Shown here one piece after another: positions 42,828 to 52,615 of a stretch of 64,000 nucleotides of DNA. This DNA is from Cyclobacteriaceae bacterium (GTDB taxonomy: Bacteria; Bacteroidota; Bacteroidia; Cytophagales; Cyclobacteriaceae). The notes under the pieces are model-generated. The model did no database searches. It saw only the letters and a program-made list of their open reading frames with translations, and was not told the origin of the DNA. Every line of letters starts with the position of its first letter. Position 1 is the stretch's first letter. Position numbers and translations under genes: made by a program. Location of the stretch: positions 68,802 to 132,801 of the forward strand of contig JBGALO010000005.1 in assembly GCA_044223825.1 (NCBI GenBank), read 5' to 3'.

Positions 42828-43817
42828 ATGGCATTCGAATCGACTACCGAGCAACAACAGGAACACCACAGAAAGATCAAGCAGGTATACACCGAAGTGG
42901 CTAAAGTCGTTGTCGGTCAGGAATACATGGTCAACAGATTGTTGATCGGGCTTTTTACCAACGGCCACGTGTTGCTAGAAGGTGTGCCCGGACTTGCAAA
43001 AACGTTGACCATCTCGACGGTAGCAAAAGTTCTTCACCTCGATTTTCAACGAATACAGTTCACGCCCGACTTGTTGCCGTCCGACCTGGTTGGAACAATG
43101 ATTTATAACCAGAAGGAAGGAAAGTTTGAAGTAAAGAAAGGTCCGATTTTCGCGAATATCATTCTTGCGGACGAGATCAACCGTTCTCCAGCAAAAGTTC
43201 AGTCTGCTTTGCTTGAAGCGATGCAGGAAAAAACGGTAACGATCGGTGAGACGACGTTTACACTTGATAAGCCTTTTCTCGTGTTGGCAACACAGAACCC
43301 GGTTGAGAACGAGGGTACTTATCCGCTCCCTGAAGCACAGGTCGATCGCTTTATGATGAAAGTGTTCGTGGATTATCCGACTAAAGAGCAGGAATTGGAG
43401 ATCATGCGGAGAATATCAAATCTTCAGTTTGATTTTACCGTCAATGCCGTTCTTACGAAGGAAGATATCTTTGCTATCCGTGCAGAAGTCAACAAGATCA
43501 AAATATCCGATTCACTTGAGCGTTATATAATAGAGCTTGTCACTGCAACACGCCGTGCGAAAGAATACAAGCTGGATCATGAAGCGCAATACATTCAGTT
43601 CGGAGCATCACCTCGTGCCAGCATTAACCTTAACCTTGCAGCGAAAGCAGCGGCTTATCTTGAGGGTCGTGATTACGTGCTGCCCGAGGATATCAAGGAA
43701 ATTGCGCGTGATGTGCTCAACCACCGAATCCTGCTGAATTATGAAGCGGAGGCTGACAACGTGAAGACACCGGATATCATTAAGGCGATTCTCAACCGCG
43801 TACCGATCAGCAAGTAA
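42828..43817 (+). CDS. MoxR family AAA+ ATPase
   Basis: EGVPGLAKT, RIQFTPDLLPSDLVG, ADEINRSPAKVQSALLEAMQE, ATQNPVENEGTYPLPEAQVDRF and GASPRA motifs. Confidence 0.95.
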   Translation: MAFESTTEQQQEHHRKIKQVYTEVAKVVVGQEYMVNRLLIGLFTNGHVLLEGVPGLAKTLTISTVAKVLHLDFQRIQFTPDLLPSDLVGTMIYNQKEGKFEVKKGPIFANIILADEINRSPAKVQSALLEAMQEKTVTIGETTFTLDKPFLVLATQNPVENEGTYPLPEAQVDRFMMKVFVDYPTKEQELEIMRRISNLQFDFTVNAVLTKEDIFAIRAEVNKIKISDSLERYIIELVTATRRAKEYKLDHEAQYIQFGASPRASINLNLAAKAAAYLEGRDYVLPEDIKEIARDVLNHRILLNYEAEADNVKTPDIIKAILNRVPISK

Positions 43818-44002
43818 CTCTGACGATAGTCACGATGTTAGGATATAGCGCTTTATCGCAACTTTAATTTCTTTAAAATTCTTTTAACGAAATTTTCTTT
43901 ACGGAAGGAACGTAACTTCTTCTGAATCATTTTAATACGCAAGCTTATTTTACGTCGCATTGCCTTGCTCGGCTATGATCTGCTTATAAGCGACCTCGGG
44001 TT

Positions 44003-44058
44003 TTAACAATTAGGTAACCTACCAGCATTAGCCCGGTAATACTTAGAAATCAACTTTG
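44003..44058 (+). promoter_or_regulatory. TBDR1 promoter: 11-bp-phased direct repeats plus -7 box
   Basis: TTAAC (44003), GTAAC (44014), GTAAT (44036), CAACTTTG (44051). Confidence 0.75.
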
Positions 44059-44078
44059 CGCAAACACCGACCACCCCT

Positions 44079-46904
44079 ATGCGCAATGTTCTTACAGTGA
44101 TTCTCATCTTGGTTGCAGCGAATTTTGCTTTTTCACAAACGGGTTCTATAAAAGGCACAATCAAGGATGAGAAAACGGGCGAGCCCATGATTGGCGCAAA
44201 CGTTGTGATTGAAGGGACAACGACAGGTGGATCGACGGATATTGAAGGTGCTTTTGTGATTCCCAAGGTGAAGGCAGGCACGTATTCAATTGTTGTATCT
44301 TCAGTTTCATATGCCAGTAGGACAATTCCAGGTATTCAAGTATATCCCGATCAGACCACGGTGGTCAATACTTTTCTCAAGGAAGATTCACAGGAGTTAG
44401 AATCGGTCGTGGTGAAAGCGGCGCGATCCACAGACACCGACGTCGCCGTTGTAACGGAATTGAAGATGGCTGATCTCGTGGCCGTGGGAATATCGTCACA
44501 ACAAATACGAATGTCCCAGGATCGCGACGCAGCACAAGTAATCAAGCGCGTGCCAGGCGTCACAATCGTGGGTAACCGCTTCGTGAATGTGCGCGGTCTC
44601 AGCGAACGCTACAGCACTGTAATGTTGAATGGCATTATTGCGCCCAGTTCCGAAGTTGATTCAAGGGCATTTTCCTTCGACCTTATTCCAAGCAACATGC
44701 TTGACAGGATGTTGGTTTATAAATCGGGGTCGGCGGAGCTCCCGGGCGAATTTGCAGGCGCGGACATTAGTATATATACCAAGAGTGTTGTTGAGGAGAA
44801 CGCGCTTTCAGTATCTGCAATGGGTAGCTATCGCGCCAATACAACAGGACAGCAAGTTGCGCTCAGCCCGGAGCAAGGTTCCAAAGATTGGATTGGCAGG
44901 GACGATGGGACGCGTGCCTTGCCATCGGGCTTTCCGTCGGCGAATCTCCGGACGCTGTCAATGGCCGATCCAACCGAGCAAAATCAATTGATTGCCGCCA
45001 CGCATAGTTTGCCCAATACATGGGGCACCCGAAGTGTTAATGTCGCTCCGGATTTCAGACTAAATGTTGACTTCGCGCGTACCATGCGGCTGGGCAAAAA
45101 GCGTTTTGACAATATCACATCAATCAGCTACGCGTCGACCAATCAGCGATTGGAGTTGGAGCAAAACTACTACGATGTGTTTTCGACCACCTTTCAGAAG
45201 AGTACACCGCGATATCGATTCAACGACGTCCGCTTTATGCAAACGAAAAGGCTCGGTATCGTAAGTAACTTCACACTGGAACTCAGTCCGCTGCATAGAC
45301 TTGAATTCAGAAACTTTTACAATCAGCAAGGCCAGAACCAATCAACTTTTCGTACCGGAACAGAAGATGCTCAGGGATATGATGTGAACAACCAGGCATT
45401 TAATTACTTCGGCAGAAACATCTATTCTGGCCAACTGTCTGGCAAGCACAGCTTTTCAGATGCCGTTAGTTTCAATTGGATTTTGGGTTATAATAATACA
45501 TCGGCCGATCAACCAGACTATCGACGAATCCGGTCACAACGCACGATTGGGACGAACGAGCCATTCGCCATCGTCATTCCACCGGGAGCAAGTTCATTTG
45601 ATGCCGGCAGGTTCTATTCCTCCCTTAAGGAGCAGGCATTTTCTGCCACGGGTAATCTGGAAATCAAGCTTAATCCCGCCGCAACGGAAGAATTACAAGC
45701 GAAACTCATAGGCGGATACTATGTTGAACAAAAGGATCGGTCATTTGATGCTCGTTGGTTTTCTTATAAATGGATAAACAGCGGTGTTATCGACAACAAC
45801 CTTCTTCTAACCAGCTTTGATAAAATCTTCGTTCCGGAAAATCTGGGAACCAAATTCATCTTGGAGGAAGGGACCAATGAAGGCCCGGATCTTTACGATC
45901 AGTACGACGGGCATAACCAGCTTTATGCCGGGTATGCAGGTGTCGTCACGCCATTTGCTCAAAGATTCCGCCTTTCGGCCGGCGTGAGGCTTGAGCATAA
46001 CCAGCAACAAATCGATGTGTACGAAGCGAACGGGAACAGGAGACGCGTGACAGATAATGTGACGACGATCCCGATGCCTTTTTCAAATCTGTCATACAGT
46101 CTTAACGAAAAGATGATGTTGCGTCTTGCTTATAGTAAAACCGTGAATAGACCTGTCTTTCGCGAGTTGGCGCCATTCAATTTTTACGACTTTGATCGCA
46201 ACGCAGACATATTCGGAAACAAAGATTTGAAAACCGCAAAAATCGACAACGTAGATCTCAGTTGGGAATTGTATCCATCAAAGCCCGAGAAGATATCATT
46301 TGGTGTTTTTTATAAGCACTTTCAGAACCCAATCGAACAATACCTTTCGCCGGGATCAAACTTGCGTTATGGTTACACAAACGCCGATGAAGCAACCAGT
46401 TATGGTGTTGAGACTGAAATCAGAAAATCACTTGCGAACCTGAATGCACCATTTATTAAAGACCTCACACTTGTTTTCAATGGTGCGCTTATTAGCAGTA
46501 ACATCATACTCCCAGCCAGTTTGAGCAATCTCGAGCATGACCGGCCGATGCAGGGCCAATCACCTTATGTAGTTAATGCAAGTGTTTTTTATAGTCACCC
46601 TGATAATGGATGGCAGTTCAGCGTTCAATATAACGTCTTTGGTAAACGAATATTCGCCGTGGGAGACAAAGACTCCAATCCAAATCAGTATGAAATGCCA
46701 CGGAATCAGGTTGACCTGACTGTTTCAAAGCAAGTATCCGAGCGAATCGAGATTCGGTTTGGAATACAGGATATAATCAATCAAAAATATCAGTTGGTCC
46801 AGGATTCGAATCGCGATGGAAAAATTACCAGTGTGGATGAGACAATTCAAAGCTATCGCTGGGGTCAGTATGCCACGTTGGGATTGGTCTGGAAAGTGCA
46901 TTAA
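44079..46904 (+). CDS. TonB-dependent outer membrane receptor (CarboxypepD_reg-like N-domain, plug, barrel)
   Basis: Signal peptide, GSIKGTIKDEKTGEP, plug RVPGVTIV..VNVRGLSERY, PNLRYG/MQGQSPY barrel motifs and a terminal aromatic beta strand. Confidence 0.93.
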   Translation: MRNVLTVILILVAANFAFSQTGSIKGTIKDEKTGEPMIGANVVIEGTTTGGSTDIEGAFVIPKVKAGTYSIVVSSVSYASRTIPGIQVYPDQTTVVNTFLKEDSQELESVVVKAARSTDTDVAVVTELKMADLVAVGISSQQIRMSQDRDAAQVIKRVPGVTIVGNRFVNVRGLSERYSTVMLNGIIAPSSEVDSRAFSFDLIPSNMLDRMLVYKSGSAELPGEFAGADISIYTKSVVEENALSVSAMGSYRANTTGQQVALSPEQGSKDWIGRDDGTRALPSGFPSANLRTLSMADPTEQNQLIAATHSLPNTWGTRSVNVAPDFRLNVDFARTMRLGKKRFDNITSISYASTNQRLELEQNYYDVFSTTFQKSTPRYRFNDVRFMQTKRLGIVSNFTLELSPLHRLEFRNFYNQQGQNQSTFRTGTEDAQGYDVNNQAFNYFGRNIYSGQLSGKHSFSDAVSFNWILGYNNTSADQPDYRRIRSQRTIGTNEPFAIVIPPGASSFDAGRFYSSLKEQAFSATGNLEIKLNPAATEELQAKLIGGYYVEQKDRSFDARWFSYKWINSGVIDNNLLLTSFDKIFVPENLGTKFILEEGTNEGPDLYDQYDGHNQLYAGYAGVVTPFAQRFRLSAGVRLEHNQQQIDVYEANGNRRRVTDNVTTIPMPFSNLSYSLNEKMMLRLAYSKTVNRPVFRELAPFNFYDFDRNADIFGNKDLKTAKIDNVDLSWELYPSKPEKISFGVFYKHFQNPIEQYLSPGSNLRYGYTNADEATSYGVETEIRKSLANLNAPFIKDLTLVFNGALISSNIILPASLSNLEHDRPMQGQSPYVVNASVFYSHPDNGWQFSVQYNVFGKRIFAVGDKDSNPNQYEMPRNQVDLTVSKQVSERIEIRFGIQDIINQKYQLVQDSNRDGKITSVDETIQSYRWGQYATLGLVWKVH

Positions 46905-46984
46905 CGAATTGTTATTAAGTCAGTTTAGAAAAGAGGTCCTTTCGAGGACTATATTTTGTTTCCATTAACACCAATCGGGTTTTA

Positions 46985-47040
46985 TTAAAGCAGTGCTAAT
47001 TCTTCGTTAATGGTCCCGTAATCCCTCGCATCTATGTTTG
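46985..47040 (+). promoter_or_regulatory. lipoprotein promoter: four 11-bp-phased repeats plus -7 box
   Basis: TTAAA (46985), CTAAT (46996), TTAAT (47007), GTAAT (47018), TATGTTTG (47033). Confidence 0.78.
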
Positions 47041-47076
47041 CTGAAGAAACTATAAGCCAACTTAAACTCACTCAGC

Positions 47077-48486
47077 ATGAAAAGAATTGCGTCTCTCTTA
47101 CCCATACTGGCGATCGCATTATCACTTCTTACCACCTCATGTAAGAAAGATGATGCAACTCCCAGCAATACCACAACAACCACTCAGACCGAGATAACTG
47201 CTCCCATCACGACAAATACAACATGGTCAGCGTCAAAAAAATATCTTCTAAAAGGAAATATTTATGTCCAGGCTCCCGCAGAACTCACGATCGAAGCGGG
47301 TACGGTGATCATGGGTGATAAAGTGACAAAAGGTGCATTGATTGTAAGTCGTGGGGCTAAGATCCACGCTGTCGGAACAGCAACAAAACCTATTGTCTTT
47401 ACATCATCCGCTCCTCAAGCATTCAGAAACTACGGAGACTGGGGTGGAGTTGTTCTCCTTGGGAAGGCTCAAAACAACCAATCTTCAAGCCAGGCAATCG
47501 AGGGAATCTCTGCGCCTACAGGCGATAACGGATTGTATGGTGGCGACGGTACCACTGAAAATGATAATAGTGGTGAGATGCAATACGTCCGGATTGAATT
47601 TGCGGGGATTGCTTTGTCAACTGACAACGAACTCAATGGACTGACTTTCGGCGGTGTCGGTAGTGGAACAAAGATCGACCACATACAGGTTTCCTATTCT
47701 GGCGATGACTCCTATGAGTGGTTTGGCGGAAAAGTTAACACGAGCTACTTAATCGCCTACAGAGGTTGGGATGATGAGTTCGATACGGATTTTGGATACA
47801 GCGGCAACAACCAGTTTCTGGTTTCCTTCCGTGATCCAAACATCGCTGACAAATCAGGCTCAAACGGATTTGAATCCGACAATAATGCGCAGGGCGACGG
47901 TAAAACACCGCAGACCGCAGCAACATTTGCGAACGTGACATTCTTTGGGCCATATATGTTCGCTAATCTTTCAGGAGCGGGCGCACTGCAGACTTCTACT
48001 GTGAGCGCCAATTATCAGCGGGGTGCGCACATCCGAAGAAACACGGCGATGAAAGCATATAACTGCGTGTTTGCGGGCGCCAATACAGTTGGAATCTTTT
48101 TCGATCAGGCTAGTGGGTCTGCTGAGTTCAAAGGGAACTATATTGGCCGTATTCCTCAAACATCCGCATTGGTTACGCCGATTCCGAACGCCCTCGCCGG
48201 AGGTACAGTTTATAACACAGCGAATTTCGCTACGGACAATACAATCGAGAGTCCTGTAAACAAGGTCGATTTATCTGCAACGTTTGCGGGATCTTCATCC
48301 AATCTTTGGAACATCACAACCCCATCGGCATTGCTGGCAGCTGGATCTCCGCTGCTCACAGGAGCGGTAACACTCCCTGCAAGTGGTGGATTCACTCAGG
48401 TTGCTTATAGAGGAGCATTTGATGCATCGAATAATTGGGCATCCAGCACCTGGACAAACTACGATCCCAACAATACAGCGTATTAG
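47077..48486 (+). CDS. surface lipoprotein with a predicted parallel beta-helix (TBDR-associated, non-SusD)
   Basis: Lipobox LLTTSC; WGGVVLLG, DNSGEMQYVRIEFAG, NGLTFGGVGSGT, DDSYEWFGG, DDEFDTDFG and NGFESDN Asp/Gly-rich repeats. Confidence 0.82.
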   Translation: MKRIASLLPILAIALSLLTTSCKKDDATPSNTTTTTQTEITAPITTNTTWSASKKYLLKGNIYVQAPAELTIEAGTVIMGDKVTKGALIVSRGAKIHAVGTATKPIVFTSSAPQAFRNYGDWGGVVLLGKAQNNQSSSQAIEGISAPTGDNGLYGGDGTTENDNSGEMQYVRIEFAGIALSTDNELNGLTFGGVGSGTKIDHIQVSYSGDDSYEWFGGKVNTSYLIAYRGWDDEFDTDFGYSGNNQFLVSFRDPNIADKSGSNGFESDNNAQGDGKTPQTAATFANVTFFGPYMFANLSGAGALQTSTVSANYQRGAHIRRNTAMKAYNCVFAGANTVGIFFDQASGSAEFKGNYIGRIPQTSALVTPIPNALAGGTVYNTANFATDNTIESPVNKVDLSATFAGSSSNLWNITTPSALLAAGSPLLTGAVTLPASGGFTQVAYRGAFDASNNWASSTWTNYDPNNTAY

Positions 48487-48502
48487 TTCTCAAAGTTTGA
48501 TA

Positions 48503-48537
48503 AGGCTCTCCGGTGCTAAATCCCGGAGAGCTTTTCT
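48503..48537 (+). terminator. Rho-independent terminator after the lipoprotein gene
   Basis: Stem GCTCTCCGG/CCGGAGAGC followed by TTTTCT. Confidence 0.75.
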
Positions 48538-48594
48538 TCAATGGTGGCAATGACCAATCCACTGATGAGTTGCGCACCACATTCAGTGTATCAC

Positions 48595-49185
48595 ATGGCA
48601 ATTTTTATAAGAACATCCGGAGTCCGAACATTATATCTTATTTCATTCGTGTTTGCGGCCTGCGCTACACCGAATCGAAATCCGGAAAAATGCTTTACCC
48701 CGGAAGTCCAGAACAAAGTCATATCACAAAGCGTGAGATATTCAGCCAAACTTGCGCCACAGGCTACTCATGAAACCAGGTTTGACACTGCTTTTAATTG
48801 GTATTATAACCTTGCCGCAAAGGAGTATGATTTGCGTGCCTGCATGCAAGACCACGACAGCGGCTATTTCTTTTTGATGACAAGAAAGGCGAGGAGCATT
48901 TGGCCAGCACGTGAAGCAATCGGTGGAAAACTCAGACTGGACGATCAAAACAATCTTGTTGATTACCATGAAGCCTTTAGAACATGGAAAATGACTGAAG
49001 ACTCTCTTAATACACGGGCGTTTGAATTGTTCGATGTAATGGTCAAGGGAAAAGACCTTACGCCCTATCATGCAAAATTTCAGCGTGACCGCTACATTGA
49101 ATTTCCCGATGACCGCTCATTTTGGGATCCAAAGGAAAAACGTTGGCGTGATAGATTTCTTATTGATTCGCTGAGAGTGAATTGA
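48595..49185 (+). CDS. hypothetical (probable lipo)protein
   Basis: Hydrophobic LYLISFVFAAC lipobox-like segment and a coherent globular sequence; the start codon is uncertain. Confidence 0.65.
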   Translation: MAIFIRTSGVRTLYLISFVFAACATPNRNPEKCFTPEVQNKVISQSVRYSAKLAPQATHETRFDTAFNWYYNLAAKEYDLRACMQDHDSGYFFLMTRKARSIWPAREAIGGKLRLDDQNNLVDYHEAFRTWKMTEDSLNTRAFELFDVMVKGKDLTPYHAKFQRDRYIEFPDDRSFWDPKEKRWRDRFLIDSLRVN

Positions 49186-49263
49186 AGCAATACAAGGTTG
49201 GTTAATAATGCCTTTTTGTATCTAAAATGACCTTTTTTGACACATTATCTACGCATCATGTTC

Positions 49264-49319
49264 TTAAAGATTTGGTAACATAGGGAATCATTTTGGGTAA
49301 TACCGTCAAGGCACCTTTG
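49264..49319 (+). promoter_or_regulatory. TBDR2 promoter: 11-bp-phased repeats plus -7 box
   Basis: TTAAA (49264), GTAAC (49275), GTAAT (49297), CACCTTTG (49312); spacing is identical to the TBDR1 promoter. Confidence 0.78.
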
Positions 49320-49336
49320 TGGCAAAATTTACCCAT

Positions 49337-52300
49337 ATGAGAAGGACGAGGAGGAATGTCTTTTATGCTGTTTGTGCGCTTACACTGATCATTACACCTT
49401 TGTTTGGCCAGGTCACGACCAGTTCGGTCACTGGAAGGATCATCGACTCCAAAGGAGAAAGCTTGCCAGGCGCCACCGTGCAACTGGTGTACAAGCCCAC
49501 GAATACAAATTTTGGCGTTGCCACAAATGCAGAAGGACGGTTTAATATCGCCAACCTTCCTCCTGGTGGACCTTACGATGTCATGGTGTCTTTCGTTGGT
49601 TACTTGCCGCAAAGCCAGAATGATGTGACACTAAGACTTGGCGAGGCTCACATTCTGAACTTTACCCTTCAGGATGAAACCCAGCAGTTAGGCGAAGTAG
49701 TTGTAGTCGGTGTATTGACAGATGCTACTGAGAAAATAGGTACAGGTAACAGCGTTGGAAAATCCCAGATTCAAACTTTGCCCACGTTGAGTCGCAGCTT
49801 TTCGGACTTCACCAGGCTAACACCACAAGTGAGCAACAACTCTTTTGCAGGCACAAGTTTCAGATATAACAACATTACACTCGACGGCGCAATAAACAAT
49901 GATGCAATTGGCTTCAGTCCTTCCCTCGGTGGTGTAAGTGGAACAGCCAACCAACCCGGCAGCAGTACCCGGACCAATTCATTCAGCCTTGACGCCATCC
50001 AGGAAGTGCAGGTTCAGATAGCACCTTACGACGTAACGCTTGGGAATTTCACAGGCGGAAGTGTCAACGCTGTATCGCGTAGTGGCAGTAACACTGTGTC
50101 AGGTTCAGTTTATGGGTTTGGTAGAAATGCCTCGATCACCGGCAAATACAAGGGTAGTGACAAGGTTGGCGACGGGTCGATTGACAACACCTATTCAGAC
50201 TATCAGACTGGTGTTCGCATCGGTCTTCCGATCATCAAGGACAAATTATTTTTGTTCACCAATGAAGAGGTGACTAATAGCCAGATGCCGCTTTTCTTTC
50301 CTGCAGGAGCGCCGGGCTACTTTATGACCACCGATATCGCGAATCAAATTAAGAACAAGCTAGCCACACTGCCCGTAAGCGCGTACAATCCTACCGGTGG
50401 TTATGACGCCGGCGCAACAACGGACTACAGTATTTATTCGAAAAGCAGAAAGTTCTTTAACAGGATTGACTGGATCATCAACAAAAATCACCAGTTAGCT
50501 ATTCGTAATAACTCTGTTATTTCAGAAGCAACAAACCTTGAGCGATCAACCAACGAGTTTCAGTTCGGCAACTACGACTTCCTCCAGAAAAATACTAATA
50601 TCAGTACCGTGGCGGAATTGAAGAGCCGCTTCGGAAATGCAGCCAGCAACAGCCTTATTGTCGGCTATACAGATATCAAAGACAGTCGCGACCCACTTGG
50701 CACGATATTCCCCCAAATTCAAATCAACGGTATCGGCAGTGGCCGCGCGTTGATAGGAACAAATCGCGAGGCCGGCATTTTCAACATGCGTCAAAAGACT
50801 TTCGAAGTGACCGACAACTTCCGGTTTTTCGCTGGCAAGCACACATACACCATTGGCACACACAATGAATTCTACAACATCGATTACAATTTTATTAACT
50901 CGTGGAACGGCCGCTATGATTATGCAAGTCTTGCAAGTTTCCTTGCAGACACGCCATCCAGGATGAGAGCGATCTATAATCCTGCAGACAACACGCGCGA
51001 CGTCAACCTTTCCAGCTCACCTGCCAAATTCAACATAGCGATGCTGAGCTTCTATATGCAGGATGAATTGGCGGTTAATGATAAGTTCAGGTTGACCTAC
51101 GGTTTGAGAGGAGATATGACATTGCTTCCTTCAGGTCCGGATGCAAGCGGGCAAAAGAATTTTCCAGCCAATCCGGCCAACTACGGAACGACCTACGATT
51201 ATGGAACCCCTGTTCCTCAAATTGGAAGCCAGTACTTTAGTCAACTGTATGTCTCTCCAAGAGTTGGATTCAACTACGACGTTAAGGGAGATCAAAGCGT
51301 GATCGTTCGTGGAGGATCTGGGATCTTCACTGGAAGAATTCCTTTCGCATGGCTGGGTTATGCCTTTTATAATAATGGAGTCTCTTACGGTGCAATGGAC
51401 TTGAATCCTCCCAAGGCCGGCACTCCTATTCCAACTGACCCTACGAAATTTCAAGCTTTTGCTGCAGCAAATGGCTCCAAGAACAGAACAGAGCTTGACG
51501 TTATCGACAAGAACTTCCAGATGCCAAGGGCATGGAGAAGCAACCTCGCAGTGGACTTTAAACTAGGTAATGGCTACGGATTGACTTTGGAAGCGCTTTA
51601 TACCCAGGTCATCAAGGATGTTCAAATCAAGCAAATCAATCTTAAGGACTCCGTGTACTACGCTCCGAATGATGTAAATAAGCAGCAGCCTCTTTACTTG
51701 TCGTCATCGACGGCTACCGGAACATCGAACCGCGTGAGCAACAACTTCTCCAGCGTCTATCTGATTACGAACACCAATCTGGGAAGCCGTTATCAGTTGA
51801 CTGCGAAAATGACGAAGGAGTTTAAATCCGGGTTGAGCATCATGGCAGCTTACACTTACGGTCAATCAAAGGATATCCTCAACGGTATCCGCAACTCGCC
51901 TGAGTCTGGTTGGCAGTTGAATCAGGCTTTGAATCCAAATAACCCTGGTCTCACATATTCAAACTTTGATATCCGTCACCGGATTGTTTCCTCTATTCAA
52001 TACAAAAAGACCTGGGCAAAGAGAACAACTTCCTATGCTTCTCTTATCTACACTTCTCAGTCAGGTTCACCCTTTACCTATGCGATCACTTCCAGCAACA
52101 ACCTGACGAGAAACGGTCAGCAAATCGACATGTTCTTTATACCTGCATCGTCAGATCAAATCAACCTGGTTAACAGGGTAAATGCTGATGGGTCGATTAC
52201 AACGCCTGCTCAGCAGTATCAAGAGTTGGATAATTTCATAAAGAGCGATAGCTATCTGAACAGTCACAGAGGTCAATTTGCAGAAAGAAATGGTGCGAGG

Positions 52301-52615
52301 ACGCCATGGAACAATCAACTCGACCTTCGATTGATGCAGGATTTTAACTTCTCTGTGGGCGGTGGAAAAATGAACACCATCCAGGTAAGTTTTGATATAA
52401 TCAACTTGTCGAATCTGATAAACAAGGATTGGGGAGTCGTTTACTATACACCAAATACGCTGAACTCTTCTGTCGACGTTGGCTTAAGGGTTACCCGGGC
52501 AGCCACTTCAACAGCGGCACCCACTTACACGTTTACCACACCCGGCGCGACTTACTCCATCGACCAATTCAGTTCAAGGTGGCAGGGTCAGTTAGGAGTC
52601 AGGTATATCTTCTAA
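49337..52615 (+). CDS. Oar-like TonB-dependent receptor with carboxypeptidase regulatory-like N-domain
   Basis: GESLPGATV, GRFNIANLPPGGPY, LPTLSRSFSDFTRLTPQ, NITLDGAINND, GNFTGGSVNAVSRSGSN, FAERNGARTPW and C-terminal RWQGQLGVRYIF. Start set at ATG 49337 because the track's GTG overlaps the -7 box. Confidence 0.93.
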   Translation: MRRTRRNVFYAVCALTLIITPLFGQVTTSSVTGRIIDSKGESLPGATVQLVYKPTNTNFGVATNAEGRFNIANLPPGGPYDVMVSFVGYLPQSQNDVTLRLGEAHILNFTLQDETQQLGEVVVVGVLTDATEKIGTGNSVGKSQIQTLPTLSRSFSDFTRLTPQVSNNSFAGTSFRYNNITLDGAINNDAIGFSPSLGGVSGTANQPGSSTRTNSFSLDAIQEVQVQIAPYDVTLGNFTGGSVNAVSRSGSNTVSGSVYGFGRNASITGKYKGSDKVGDGSIDNTYSDYQTGVRIGLPIIKDKLFLFTNEEVTNSQMPLFFPAGAPGYFMTTDIANQIKNKLATLPVSAYNPTGGYDAGATTDYSIYSKSRKFFNRIDWIINKNHQLAIRNNSVISEATNLERSTNEFQFGNYDFLQKNTNISTVAELKSRFGNAASNSLIVGYTDIKDSRDPLGTIFPQIQINGIGSGRALIGTNREAGIFNMRQKTFEVTDNFRFFAGKHTYTIGTHNEFYNIDYNFINSWNGRYDYASLASFLADTPSRMRAIYNPADNTRDVNLSSSPAKFNIAMLSFYMQDELAVNDKFRLTYGLRGDMTLLPSGPDASGQKNFPANPANYGTTYDYGTPVPQIGSQYFSQLYVSPRVGFNYDVKGDQSVIVRGGSGIFTGRIPFAWLGYAFYNNGVSYGAMDLNPPKAGTPIPTDPTKFQAFAAANGSKNRTELDVIDKNFQMPRAWRSNLAVDFKLGNGYGLTLEALYTQVIKDVQIKQINLKDSVYYAPNDVNKQQPLYLSSSTATGTSNRVSNNFSSVYLITNTNLGSRYQLTAKMTKEFKSGLSIMAAYTYGQSKDILNGIRNSPESGWQLNQALNPNNPGLTYSNFDIRHRIVSSIQYKKTWAKRTTSYASLIYTSQSGSPFTYAITSSNNLTRNGQQIDMFFIPASSDQINLVNRVNADGSITTPAQQYQELDNFIKSDSYLNSHRGQFAERNGARTPWNNQLDLRLMQDFNFSVGGGKMNTIQVSFDIINLSNLINKDWGVVYYTPNTLNSSVDVGLRVTRAATSTAAPTYTFTTPGATYSIDQFSSRWQGQLGVRYIF

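What the first reader, a model, noticed from the sequence alone, without database searches (positions are those of the whole stretch)
44003..49319. Three promoters with identical phased direct-repeat architecture define a candidate outer-membrane uptake regulon
Seen in sequence: P1 (44003) TTAACAATTAG-GTAACCTACCA-GCATTAGCCCG-GTAATACTTAGAAAT-CAACTTTG; P2 (46985) TTAAAGCAGTG-CTAATTCTTCG-TTAATGGTCCC-GTAATCCCTCGCATC-TATGTTTG; P3 (49264) TTAAAGATTTG-GTAACATAGGG-AATCATTTTGG-GTAATACCGTCAAGG-CACCTTTG. All three have NTAA(A/C/T) half-sites on an 11-bp period, start with TTAA, and place GTAAT exactly 15 bp before the -7 box start. P1 and P3 both have a weakened -7 box (CA instead of TA), as expected of activator-dependent promoters. 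An extra TTAAA/TTAAC pair 11 bp apart lies at 43873/43884. Established: OmpR/PhoB-family regulators bind 11-bp tandem repeats near the -35 region. Inference: TBDR1, the lipoprotein and TBDR2 are co-activated by one response regulator not encoded in this window; phosphate starvation is the leading guess.
Basis: partly seen in the sequence, partly recalled or inferred. Interest (0 to 1): 0.8.

Follow-up and report, generated by a model that had tools for sequence, protein, structure and literature searches.

The report
Phosphate-starvation (Pho box) promoters of uptake genes
Three neighbouring outer-membrane uptake genes each carry the same conserved promoter, which in related bacteria also sits in front of the classical phosphate-transport genes, so this locus is most likely switched on by the phosphate-starvation regulator PhoB.

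Summary
The composite pattern occurs exactly three times in the 5.2-Mb genome, and all three copies are in this locus. A position-weight-matrix (PWM) scan scores them 48, 47 and 26 bits, with the next best site at 8.6.

The architecture is four 11-bp units (nTAAY, often TAACATTGG), with the last unit 15 bp before a Bacteroidota -7 box. It is conserved before orthologues of TBDR1, the beta-helix lipoprotein and TBDR2 across the genus. It also occurs in 56 of 301 genomes of the order, against 2 control hits.

In other families the same motif precedes porin O/P or DUF2490 genes followed by pstS, a histidine acid phosphatase gene and a metallophosphoesterase gene. In one genome a single island reads: Pho box, TBDR1, beta-helix lipoprotein, orf214 homologue, exbBDD-tonB, phoB-like gene, Pho box, oprP, pstSCAB.

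The genome has a PhoB/PhoR-like pair outside the window. Orthologues of that regulator are present in every motif-bearing genome tested. The genome itself has no pstS, phoU or oprP.

Flavobacterium johnsoniae induces a comparable receptor plus beta-helix lipoprotein pair under phosphate depletion. I found no published Pho box for this phylum in the papers searched. This is a new member of a known kind.

The parts
43853..43900 (.). Upstream auxiliary element. It includes the TTAAA/TTAAC pair at 43873/43884. In relatives it reads on the minus strand as ATAACAT(0)-TTAAw(11)-GTAAT(22)-TTAAr(31)-TTTGG(37). It is degenerate in this genome.
   Evidence: Alignment A2 of 19 oriented sites shows a conserved block about 130 bp upstream of P1. 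Sequence. Function not established.
44003..44058 (+). P1, a Pho-box promoter. Units: TTAACAATTAG (44003), GTAACCTACCA (44014), degenerate GCATTAGCCCG (44025), GTAATACTTAG (44036). The -7 box CAACTTTG is at 44051-44058. The ATG is 20 nt further.
   Evidence: Conserved with identical spacing before TBDR1 orthologues of 38-72% identity in more than 60 genomes of the genus.
44079..46904 (+). TBDR1, a TonB-dependent receptor (CarbopepD_reg, Plug, beta-barrel).
   Evidence: Pfam and NCBIfam. Orthologues follow the motif in the genus and in other families.
46935..46960 (+). Terminator-like hairpin plus T-run between TBDR1 and P2.
   Evidence: Equivalent hairpins are present in G007 and G002.
46985..47040 (+). 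P2, a Pho-box promoter with four units: TTAAA, CTAAT, TTAAT and GTAAT at 48/37/26/15 bp from the canonical -7 box TATGTTTG (47033-47040). The ATG is 36 nt further.
   Evidence: The same unit positions occur in G002, G003, G007, G072 and G114. In a further clade the units are shifted by whole helical turns.
47077..48486 (+). Surface lipoprotein of the Beta_helix_4 family (PF28492).
   Evidence: Precomputed Pfam annotation on homologues. Lipobox in the N-terminus. 46% identical orthologue in the G397 Pho island.
48541..49185 (+). Small lipoprotein orf214. The start is probably the ATG at 48595, giving the signal peptide MAIFIRTSGVRTLYLISFVFAAC. It is a conserved third gene of the module.
   Evidence: Homologues of 184-198 aa follow the lipoprotein in relatives. 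29% identity, E 2e-16, to the G397 island gene.
49264..49319 (+). P3, a Pho-box promoter. Units: TTAAAGATTTG, GTAACATAGGG, degenerate AATCATTTTGG, GTAATACCGTC. The -7 box CACCTTTG is at 49312-49319.
   Evidence: TBDR2 orthologues in G112, G014 and G005 carry the same motif.
49337..52615 (+). TBDR2, a large outer-membrane barrel (OMP_b-brl_4 plus CarboxypepD_reg). The ORF caller starts at the GTG at 49319. The ATG at 49337 fits the 16-22 nt spacing seen in relatives.
   Evidence: The gene is absent from this position in G007 and G002.

Best explanation
P1, P2 and P3 are PhoB-dependent (Pho box) promoters of the Bacteroidota type.

**Architecture.** Each has up to four tandem 11-bp units (nTAAY, fuller consensus TAACATTGG). 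The promoter-proximal unit starts 15 bp before the -7 element (TAnnTTTG, here CAnnTTTG in P1 and P3). The units therefore occupy the place of the missing -33 element.

**Proposed mechanism.** The phosphorylated OmpR/PhoB-family regulator binds head-to-tail as tandem dimers on one face of the helix and recruits RNA polymerase when phosphate is scarce. The best candidate regulator is the PhoB-like protein at C1:304059-304748 of this genome, which sits next to a PhoR/PnpS-like kinase. This would switch on TBDR1, the beta-helix lipoprotein with the small lipoprotein orf214, and TBDR2, an outer-membrane system for a phosphorus-containing substrate.

**Shown:**
- the motif, its uniqueness in this genome and its conservation;
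- its helical phasing;
- its association with pstS, oprP and phosphatase genes in relatives.

**Inferred:** binding by PhoB, activation under phosphate limitation, the transcription start sites and the substrate.
For: 1. **Uniqueness.** There are three sites in 5.2 Mb, all in this locus and all co-oriented with their genes.
2. **Genus-wide conservation.**
   - 51 of 101 genomes match a strict pattern, with 0 control hits.
   - 14 sampled genomes that miss the strict pattern still have P1 with the last unit changed to GATAAT, GGTAAC or AGTAAC, scoring 34-58 bits, mostly 44-58.
   - The motif sits 16-22 nt before the ATG of TBDR1 or TBDR2 orthologues of only 38-72% identity.
3. **Order-wide spread.** 56 of 301 genomes match, against 2 control hits. 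The unconstrained third unit shows nTAAY (T 42, A 39, A 44 of 53), and the TA of the -7 box also emerges.
4. **Phasing.** P2 units lie at 15/26/37/48 or 26/37/48/59 bp from the box. 22 of 28 nTAAH occurrences in the six closest genomes share one residue class mod 11, and the more distant clade, read by eye, keeps the same phase with one 1-bp exception.
5. **Promoter type.** TAnnTTTG is enriched 0-30 nt before ORF starts in this genome.
6. **Pho link.**
   - The motif is followed by Porin_O_P or DUF2490 and then pstS in G355, G397, G289, G246, G215, G199 and G395.
   - It also precedes His_Phos_2 and Metallophos genes.
   - The G397 island joins the orthologous module, exbBDD-tonB, a phoB-like gene and oprP-pstSCAB under two boxes.
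7. **Regulator.**
   - The best NCBIfam hits of the regulator are PhoB, and those of the neighbouring kinase are PnpS/PhoR.
   - Orthologues are present in all motif-bearing genomes tested, at 60-95% identity.
8. **Published experiment.** F. johnsoniae induces a TBDT and the beta-helix-like lipoprotein FII of its phoBR cluster, OprP-cluster genes, a MauG-like protein and a glycosyltransferase under phosphate depletion (PMC8115612).
9. **Resemblance to a known box.** Own knowledge: the B. subtilis PhoP box is four TT(A/T/C)ACA repeats on an 11-bp period.
Against: - No expression, transcription-start or binding data could be obtained.
- This genome lacks pstS, phoU and oprP. The Pho link therefore rests on other families of the order.
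- The PhoB-like regulator and its kinase score below NCBIfam's equivalog cut-offs: 228 against 296 bits, and 261 against 334 bits.
- A second PhoB/YycF-like regulator exists (C19:197802).
- The third unit of P1 and P3 is not a half-site.
- Some downstream genes in other families (a Fur-like gene, a thioredoxin-like gene, large surface proteins) are not obvious Pho genes.
Confidence: 0.8

Rival explanations
1. The units bind a different OmpR-family response regulator that responds to a signal other than phosphate, for example an RprY-like or CusR-like regulator. The pstS association in other families would then reflect a shared or cross-talking site.
For: - Ten OmpR-type regulators are encoded.
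- In a 20-genome sample, a CusR-like and an RprY-like regulator tracked presence of the locus: 9/10 against 0/10, and 10/10 against 2/10.
- GTAAT/GTAAC half-sites resemble several family members (own knowledge: CpxR GTAAA, PmrA CTTAAT, cop box TGTAAT).
Against: - Across 101 genomes those regulators are absent from many motif-bearing genomes. G100, G110 and G111 lack all three candidates at E 1e-60 yet have perfect motifs.
- The PhoB-like regulator is present in all of them.
- The motif sits before pstS operons and next to a phoB-like gene.
Confidence: 0.1
2. The strongly conserved pair GTAAY-N17-GTAAT in P1 is the site of an AraC-type hybrid two-component system or a SusR-like regulator. In Bacteroides these are predicted to bind direct repeats about 21 bp apart.
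For: - In genus-level P1 only the units at 0, 11 and 33 are conserved, so the two best units are 22 bp apart.
- Ravcheev et al. 2013 report direct repeats spaced about 21 bp for HTCS and SusR regulators (PMC3878776).
Against: - P2 and the sites in other families have four units at 11-bp spacing.
- No such regulator gene lies next to the locus in any relative examined.
- The pstS, oprP and phosphatase context points to Pho.
Confidence: 0.04
3. The conserved blocks are the -35 and -10 of an alternative (ECF-type) sigma factor, for example GTAACA-N17-TAATAT, rather than activator sites.
For: GTAACA and TAATAT are 17 bp apart in P1 and P3. TGTAAC-type -35 boxes are known for ECF sigmas (own knowledge).
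Against: - The distance from the units to the TTTG box is fixed, and TAnnTTTG emerges unconstrained in other families.
- In P2 of a second clade the units sit 11-22 bp further upstream while keeping phase. That does not fit a -35/-10 pair.
- No sigma/anti-sigma pair is linked to the locus in this genus.
Confidence: 0.03
4. The region is a transcribed RNA element (the ACCC...GGGT hairpin between the units), or simply a chance similarity.
For: An ACCC / GGGT inverted repeat is frequent in genus-level P1.
Against: - No pair shows compensatory change in helix A. Helix B has one varying pair and is no better than slid controls.
- Conservation is of sequence, not of pairing.
- Chance is excluded.
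Confidence: 0.01

Closest known systems
Pho box / PhoB(PhoP)-dependent promoters, especially the Bacillus subtilis PhoP core binding region (four TT(A/T/C)ACA repeats, 11-bp period)
   Same: - Tandem direct repeats on an 11-bp period.
- Two dimer sites, so four units.
- A TTAACA-like half-site.
- The units occupy the place of the upstream promoter element.
- The box lies in front of pstS, a phosphate porin gene and phosphatase genes in relatives.
   Different: - The core promoter is the Bacteroidota -33/-7 type (TAnnTTTG), not -35/-10.
- The unit consensus (nTAAYATTGG) differs from the E. coli CTGTCAT.
- In this genus the third unit of P1 is replaced by gACCC.
- In this genome the only strict boxes serve a TonB-dependent system, and pstSCAB-phoU is absent.
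Flavobacterium johnsoniae phosphate-depletion clusters PUSIII/PUSIV: a TBDT plus the 'FI/FII' polygalacturonase-like lipoproteins, Fjoh_0545/0546 in the phoBR cluster (Lidbury et al. 2021, PMC8115612)
   Same: - A TonB-dependent transporter with CarbopepD_reg and Plug domains paired with a beta-helix-fold surface lipoprotein rather than a SusD.
- Physical linkage to phoB, seen here in G397 and G345.
- Induction by phosphate limitation, measured in F. johnsoniae and predicted here.
   Different: - Sequence homology between this lipoprotein (PF28492) and Fjoh_0546, Fjoh_3856 or Fjoh_4889 was not tested.
- The order differs (Cytophagales against Flavobacteriales).
- No Pho box is described in that paper.
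- The function of those clusters is still stated as unknown in a 2026 preprint.
HTCS / SusR direct-repeat operators of Bacteroides polysaccharide loci (Ravcheev et al. 2013, PMC3878776)
   Same: Direct repeats upstream of TonB-dependent receptor genes in Bacteroidota. The two strongest units of P1 are about 21-22 bp apart.
   Different: - Here the period is 11 bp with up to four units.
- The regulator is not encoded beside the locus.
- The regulon is phosphate-related, not glycan-related.

Membership tests
Pho box / PhoB-dependent promoter | Two or more tandem direct repeats on a period of about 11 bp | tested here: met
   Units lie at 0/11/(22)/33 in P1-P3. The unconstrained third unit is nTAAY in 53 order-level sites. 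22 of 28 P2 units fall in one residue class mod 11.
Pho box / PhoB-dependent promoter | The box replaces or overlaps the upstream promoter element, in fixed phase with the core promoter | tested here: met
   The last unit starts 15 bp before the -7 box in all sites. It shifts only by multiples of 11 in a second clade, with one 1-bp exception in G021. The -7 box is the genome's normal promoter element.
Pho box / PhoB-dependent promoter | Occurs in front of hallmark Pho genes (pstS, phosphate porin, phosphatases) | tested here: met
   Met in other families of the order: Porin_O_P or DUF2490 followed by pstS in 7 genomes, plus His_Phos_2 and Metallophos. It cannot be met in this genome, which has no pstS, phoU or oprP.
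Pho box / PhoB-dependent promoter | A cognate PhoB/PhoR pair is present | tested here: inconclusive
   The regulator at C1:304059 has PhoB models as its top hits, and the adjacent kinase has PnpS/PhoR as its top hits. Both score below the equivalog cut-offs. Orthologues are in all motif-bearing genomes tested, and one lies adjacent to a Pho box and pstS operon in G397.
Pho box / PhoB-dependent promoter | Bound by phosphorylated PhoB and induced by phosphate limitation | not testable with these tools
HTCS/SusR-type operator | Two conserved sites about 21 bp apart, with the regulator gene co-located with the receptor locus | tested here: not met
   P1 does have 22-bp spacing between its two best units. 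However, four 11-bp units occur elsewhere, and there is no regulator gene in the conserved neighbourhood.
ECF-sigma-dependent promoter | A -35/-10 pair at fixed spacing, with a linked sigma/anti-sigma pair | tested here: not met
   The units move by 11-22 bp relative to the core promoter. No ECF or FecR genes are linked to the locus in the genus.
Structured RNA leader | Base pairs supported by compensatory changes | tested here: not met
   No pair has changes on both sides in helix A. Helix B is no better than slid controls.
F. johnsoniae PUSIV-like TBDT plus beta-helix lipoprotein module | A TBDT with CarbopepD_reg and Plug domains next to a beta-helix-fold lipoprotein, linked to phoBR and phosphate-responsive | tested here: inconclusive
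   The domain make-up matches. Linkage to a phoB-like gene is seen in G397 and G345. Sequence homology to Fjoh_0546 was not tested, and expression is not testable.

The most novel reading that the evidence does not exclude
In this family of Cytophagales the classical high-affinity phosphate machinery (pstSCAB, phoU, oprP) has been lost, while PhoB/PhoR and its box are kept. The only full Pho-box promoters of the genome drive a TonB-dependent receptor, beta-helix lipoprotein and second receptor system.

That system would then be the organism's main phosphate-starvation uptake route, taking up an organic or condensed phosphorus substrate across the outer membrane. PhoR would have to sense phosphate without PstB/PhoU.
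Probability: 0.3. Interest if true: 0.7.

Novelty: new member of a known kind. Interest (0 to 1): 0.5.

Why it matters
**A usable sequence definition.** This gives a concrete definition of the Pho box for Cytophagales, and probably more widely in Bacteroidia: four 11-bp nTAAY(ATTGG) units phased to the -7 box. I found no such description in the papers searched. With it, Pho regulons can be read directly from Bacteroidota genomes and metagenome-assembled genomes.

**A functional assignment for an uncharacterised gene module.** It places a widespread and functionally unknown module in the phosphate-starvation response: a TonB-dependent receptor, a Beta_helix_4 lipoprotein and a small lipoprotein. 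The search for lipoprotein homologues returned more than 7,500. This agrees with proteomics from Flavobacterium johnsoniae, where the function of the comparable clusters is still open.

**A natural test case.** It identifies a lineage without the Pst system in which this module is the only strict Pho target. That makes the lineage a good place to ask what these receptors import.

Tried and rejected
2. **Genome-wide regulon in this genome.** The full PWM and relaxed regular expressions found nothing outside the locus. Half-motif scans gave hits at about the number expected by chance, before an amino-acid permease gene, an Nramp gene, folP and PiT. I did not count these as regulon members.
3. 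**Looking for pstS and phoU in this genome.** Both are absent. This first looked like evidence against the Pho idea and was only resolved by the order-wide search.
4. **Hairpin or RNA element between the units.** No covariation.
5. **Phylogenetic profiling of the ten OmpR-type regulators with concatenated queries.**
   - The CusR-like, RprY-like and second PhoB/YycF-like regulators looked promising in 20 genomes.
   - They failed in 101 genomes.
6. **A regulator gene beside the locus.** None in the window or in five relatives' neighbourhoods.
7. **Solved structures by sequence.** No matches for the lipoprotein or orf214.
8. **Alignment A1.** It mixed orientations, because loci from minus-strand pattern hits are not re-oriented. 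It was redone as A2.

Full report
**The observation**

The three 56-nt strings are in the window exactly as written, at 44003, 46985 and 49264.

| Promoter | Gene served | Gene coordinates | Gap from TTTG to ATG |
|---|---|---|---|
| P1 | TBDR1, a TonB-dependent receptor (CarbopepD_reg, Plug, barrel) | 44079-46904 | 20 nt |
| P2 | Lipoprotein with no hit in the local Pfam copy; its homologues carry PF28492 Beta_helix_4 | 47077-48486 | 36 nt |
| P3 | TBDR2 (OMP_b-brl_4 plus CarboxypepD_reg) | probable ATG at 49337, to 52615 | 17 nt |

A terminator-like hairpin follows TBDR1, and another follows the lipoprotein gene (sequence). Separate promoters are therefore plausible.

**Is it more than chance?**

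Yes.
- In the whole 5.2-Mb assembly the pattern nTAAY-N17-GTAAT-N14-TTTG occurs three times, and those are the three reported sites. Order-3 Markov genomes give 0-1.
- A 56-nt weight matrix built mainly from relatives scores P3 at 48.2, P1 at 47.1 and P2 at 25.8 bits. The best of the other 10.4 million positions scores 8.6.
- Looser expressions, two or three phased TAAY plus the box, also find only these sites.
- TAnnTTTG is enriched four- to six-fold in the 30 nt before ORF starts. The organism therefore uses the Bacteroidota -7 element, and the boxes sit at a normal distance from their genes.

**Conservation in the genus**

- A strict pattern hits 51 of 101 genomes of the genus, 57 sites in all. 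The reversed control gives no hit.
- In 29 of 30 loci the motif is followed after 11-36 nt by an ATG, and 28 of those genes match a locus protein. 24 match TBDR1 (38-72% identity over the N-terminal half), 2 match TBDR2 (69% and 56%) and 2 match the lipoprotein.
- In 14 sampled genomes that have the lipoprotein but miss the strict pattern, P1 is still there. Only the last unit has changed, to GATAAT, GGTAAC, AGTAAC or GTTAAT, and the sites score 34-58 bits, mostly 44-58.
- The genus consensus is TTAACAATT-nn-RTAAYAT-(gACCC...)-rGGTAAYAT-N9-sACCTTTG.
- In P2 all four units are real. They sit at 48/37/26/15 bp from the box in six genomes.
- In a more distant clade of the genus the units sit at 59/48/37(/26) bp. 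This is a shift by whole helical turns, with a single 1-bp exception. Conservation of phase rather than of distance is what an activator that must face RNA polymerase would produce.
- The ACCC/GGGT complementarity between the units shows no compensatory change. I reject an RNA structure.

**What regulates it: the first attempts**

- No regulator gene lies in the window or next to the locus in relatives. The conserved neighbourhood is Metallophos(-), MoxR, TBDR1, Beta_helix_4, an orf of about 190 aa, orf230(-), and an epimerase.
- The genome has ten OmpR-type regulators.
- It has no PstS (PF12849) and no PhoU (PF01895). This at first spoke against a Pho regulon.
- Profiling the ten regulators pointed to a CusR-like and an RprY-like protein in 20 genomes. 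In 101 genomes, however, many motif-bearing genomes lack them, including G100, G110 and G111.

**The turn: the order-wide search**

- A pattern that leaves the third unit and the TA of the box free was searched in 301 genomes of the order. It hit 56 genomes in 32 genera, against 2 control hits.
- In the 53 representative sites from other genera, nearly all from other families, the free third unit reads nTAAY (T 42, A 39, A 44 of 53), and TA appears at the head of the box.
- Four 11-bp units plus a -7 box is therefore a general promoter class of the order.
- The genes behind it are telling:
  - phosphate-selective porin O/P in five genomes of two families;
  - a histidine acid phosphatase;
  - a metallophosphoesterase;
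  - DUF2490 outer-membrane proteins;
  - a glycosyltransferase;
  - a MauG-like peroxidase;
  - TBDR1, lipoprotein and TBDR2-like orthologues.
- A PstS search in 14 of these genomes was the decisive step. In 7 of the 12 that have pstS, the motif lies 1.5-2.5 kb upstream on the same strand, in the order motif, porin O/P or DUF2490, pstS, pstC.
- In G397, which belongs to another family, one 15-kb island reads in order:
  1. box
  2. TBDR1 orthologue (43% identity)
  3. beta-helix lipoprotein orthologue (46% identity, E 4e-112)
  4. orf214 homologue (E 2e-16)
  5. exbB-exbD-exbD-tonB
  6. phoB-like regulator gene
  7. box
  8. porin O/P gene
  9. pstS-pstC-pstA-pstB
- This ties the module in the window to phosphate acquisition within a single genome.

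**The regulator**

- The most conserved OmpR-type regulator of this genome is at C1:304059-304748. Its best NCBIfam hits are PhoB models (TIGR02154 at 228 bits, and the Bacteroides PhoB model at 225 bits).
- The kinase that follows it has PnpS and PhoR as its best hits. Both proteins score below the equivalog cut-offs.
- Its orthologues are present in every motif-bearing genome tested, at 77-95% identity in the genus and 60-69% in other families.
- These include the genomes that lack the other candidate regulators.
- One homologue lies immediately upstream of the Pho box and pstS operon of G397. Another lies behind a box-driven receptor gene in G345.
- Its own upstream region carries three phased units in inverted orientation. 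This hints at autoregulation.

**Comparison with what is known**

- Own knowledge: E. coli Pho boxes are pairs of 11-bp repeats that replace the -35 element. The B. subtilis PhoP core site is four TT(A/T/C)ACA repeats on an 11-bp period. The present units (TTAACA, GTAACA) are closest to the B. subtilis site.
- The difference is the Bacteroidota core promoter and the lineage-specific unit consensus.
- Lidbury et al. (PMC8115612) showed the following in Flavobacterium johnsoniae under phosphate depletion:
  - strong induction of a TBDT (Fjoh_0545) and a polygalacturonase-like lipoprotein 'FII' (Fjoh_0546) in the phoBR cluster;
  - induction of the related FI and FIII lipoproteins, a MauG-like protein and a glycosyltransferase.
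- This is the same gene set that follows the motif here. That paper does not mention a Pho box.
- A 2026 preprint still calls the function of those clusters hard to predict.
- My searches found no description of a Pho box for this phylum. This covers the held library only.
- A class-wide scan hit 17 of about 243 genomes of other orders, against 1 control hit. The box type probably extends beyond Cytophagales, but I did not annotate those sites.

**Verdict**

These are Pho-box promoters, and TBDR1, the beta-helix lipoprotein with orf214, and TBDR2 are predicted PhoB targets.
- **Shown:** the motif, its uniqueness, conservation and phasing, and its linkage to pstS, oprP, phosphatase genes and phoB in relatives.
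- **Inferred:** binding by PhoB, activation on phosphate limitation, the start sites and the substrate.
- It is a new member of a known kind of element.
- The more interesting open point is that this family (G000, G204 and G122) has no Pst system. In this genome the strict boxes serve only this receptor system.

Noticed in passing
own genome, whole assembly (outside the window); G204 and G122 of the same family: No PstS (PF12849) in three genomes of the family. In this genome there is also no PhoU (PF01895), no Porin_O_P homologue and no His_Phos_2 homologue, although a PhoB/PhoR-like pair is kept.
   Followed up: partly
own genome C1:303972-304040 (outside the window), upstream of the PhoB-like gene at C1:304059: Three nTAAY units at exact 11-bp spacing on the minus strand, plus a forward TTAACACTGG unit and a TACTTTTG box. 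This is one of only six triple-phased TAAY sites in the genome, so autoregulation is possible.
   Followed up: partly
own genome C23:202165-204753 (outside the window): Three DUF2490-like outer-membrane genes. Two of them are divergent around an intergenic region packed with TAAY units, including two triple-phased sites. In other families DUF2490 genes sit between the Pho box and pstS.
   Followed up: partly
own genome C19:365680-365753 (outside the window): Six GTAACAT-type units in three 11-bp pairs, upstream of an aldehyde dehydrogenase gene. No TTTG box is at the usual distance.
   Followed up: no
own genome C23:193187-193210 (outside the window): Two units (TTAACACTGGC ATAACACAGGG) about 100 bp upstream of a PiT-type phosphate transporter gene.
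   Followed up: no
window 46905-46919: Right after the TBDR1 stop codon there is a conserved AATTGTTA. On the minus strand it reads (T/G)TAACAATT-nn-TTAAA, a two-unit site. It is also present in G007 and G002. Part of the conservation comes from the Phe-stop codons.
   Followed up: partly
window 44055-44064 (and P3 at 49316-49328): The -7 box runs into a small palindrome, TTTGC(n)GCAAA, that is common in genus-level P1 promoters. It could be start-site context or a second operator.
   Followed up: no
window 42828-43817: A solitary MoxR-type AAA ATPase gene always lies directly upstream of TBDR1 in relatives, without the usual DUF58 or VWA partner genes.
   Followed up: no
L088 (G345:C1:223021-226876): The receptor gene behind the second box of G345 is split into several short frames, so it is a possible pseudogene or carries sequencing errors. 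A partial phoB-like gene follows it.
   Followed up: no
L042 (G066:C38): A weaker copy of the motif lies 11 nt before a Metallophos gene, the family that is a conserved neighbour of the locus.
   Followed up: no
window 48493-48538: An AAAGTTTG box and a strong hairpin (CTCTCCGG...CCGGAGAG plus a T-run) lie between the lipoprotein gene and orf214. It is unclear whether orf214 is co-transcribed or has its own start.
   Followed up: no
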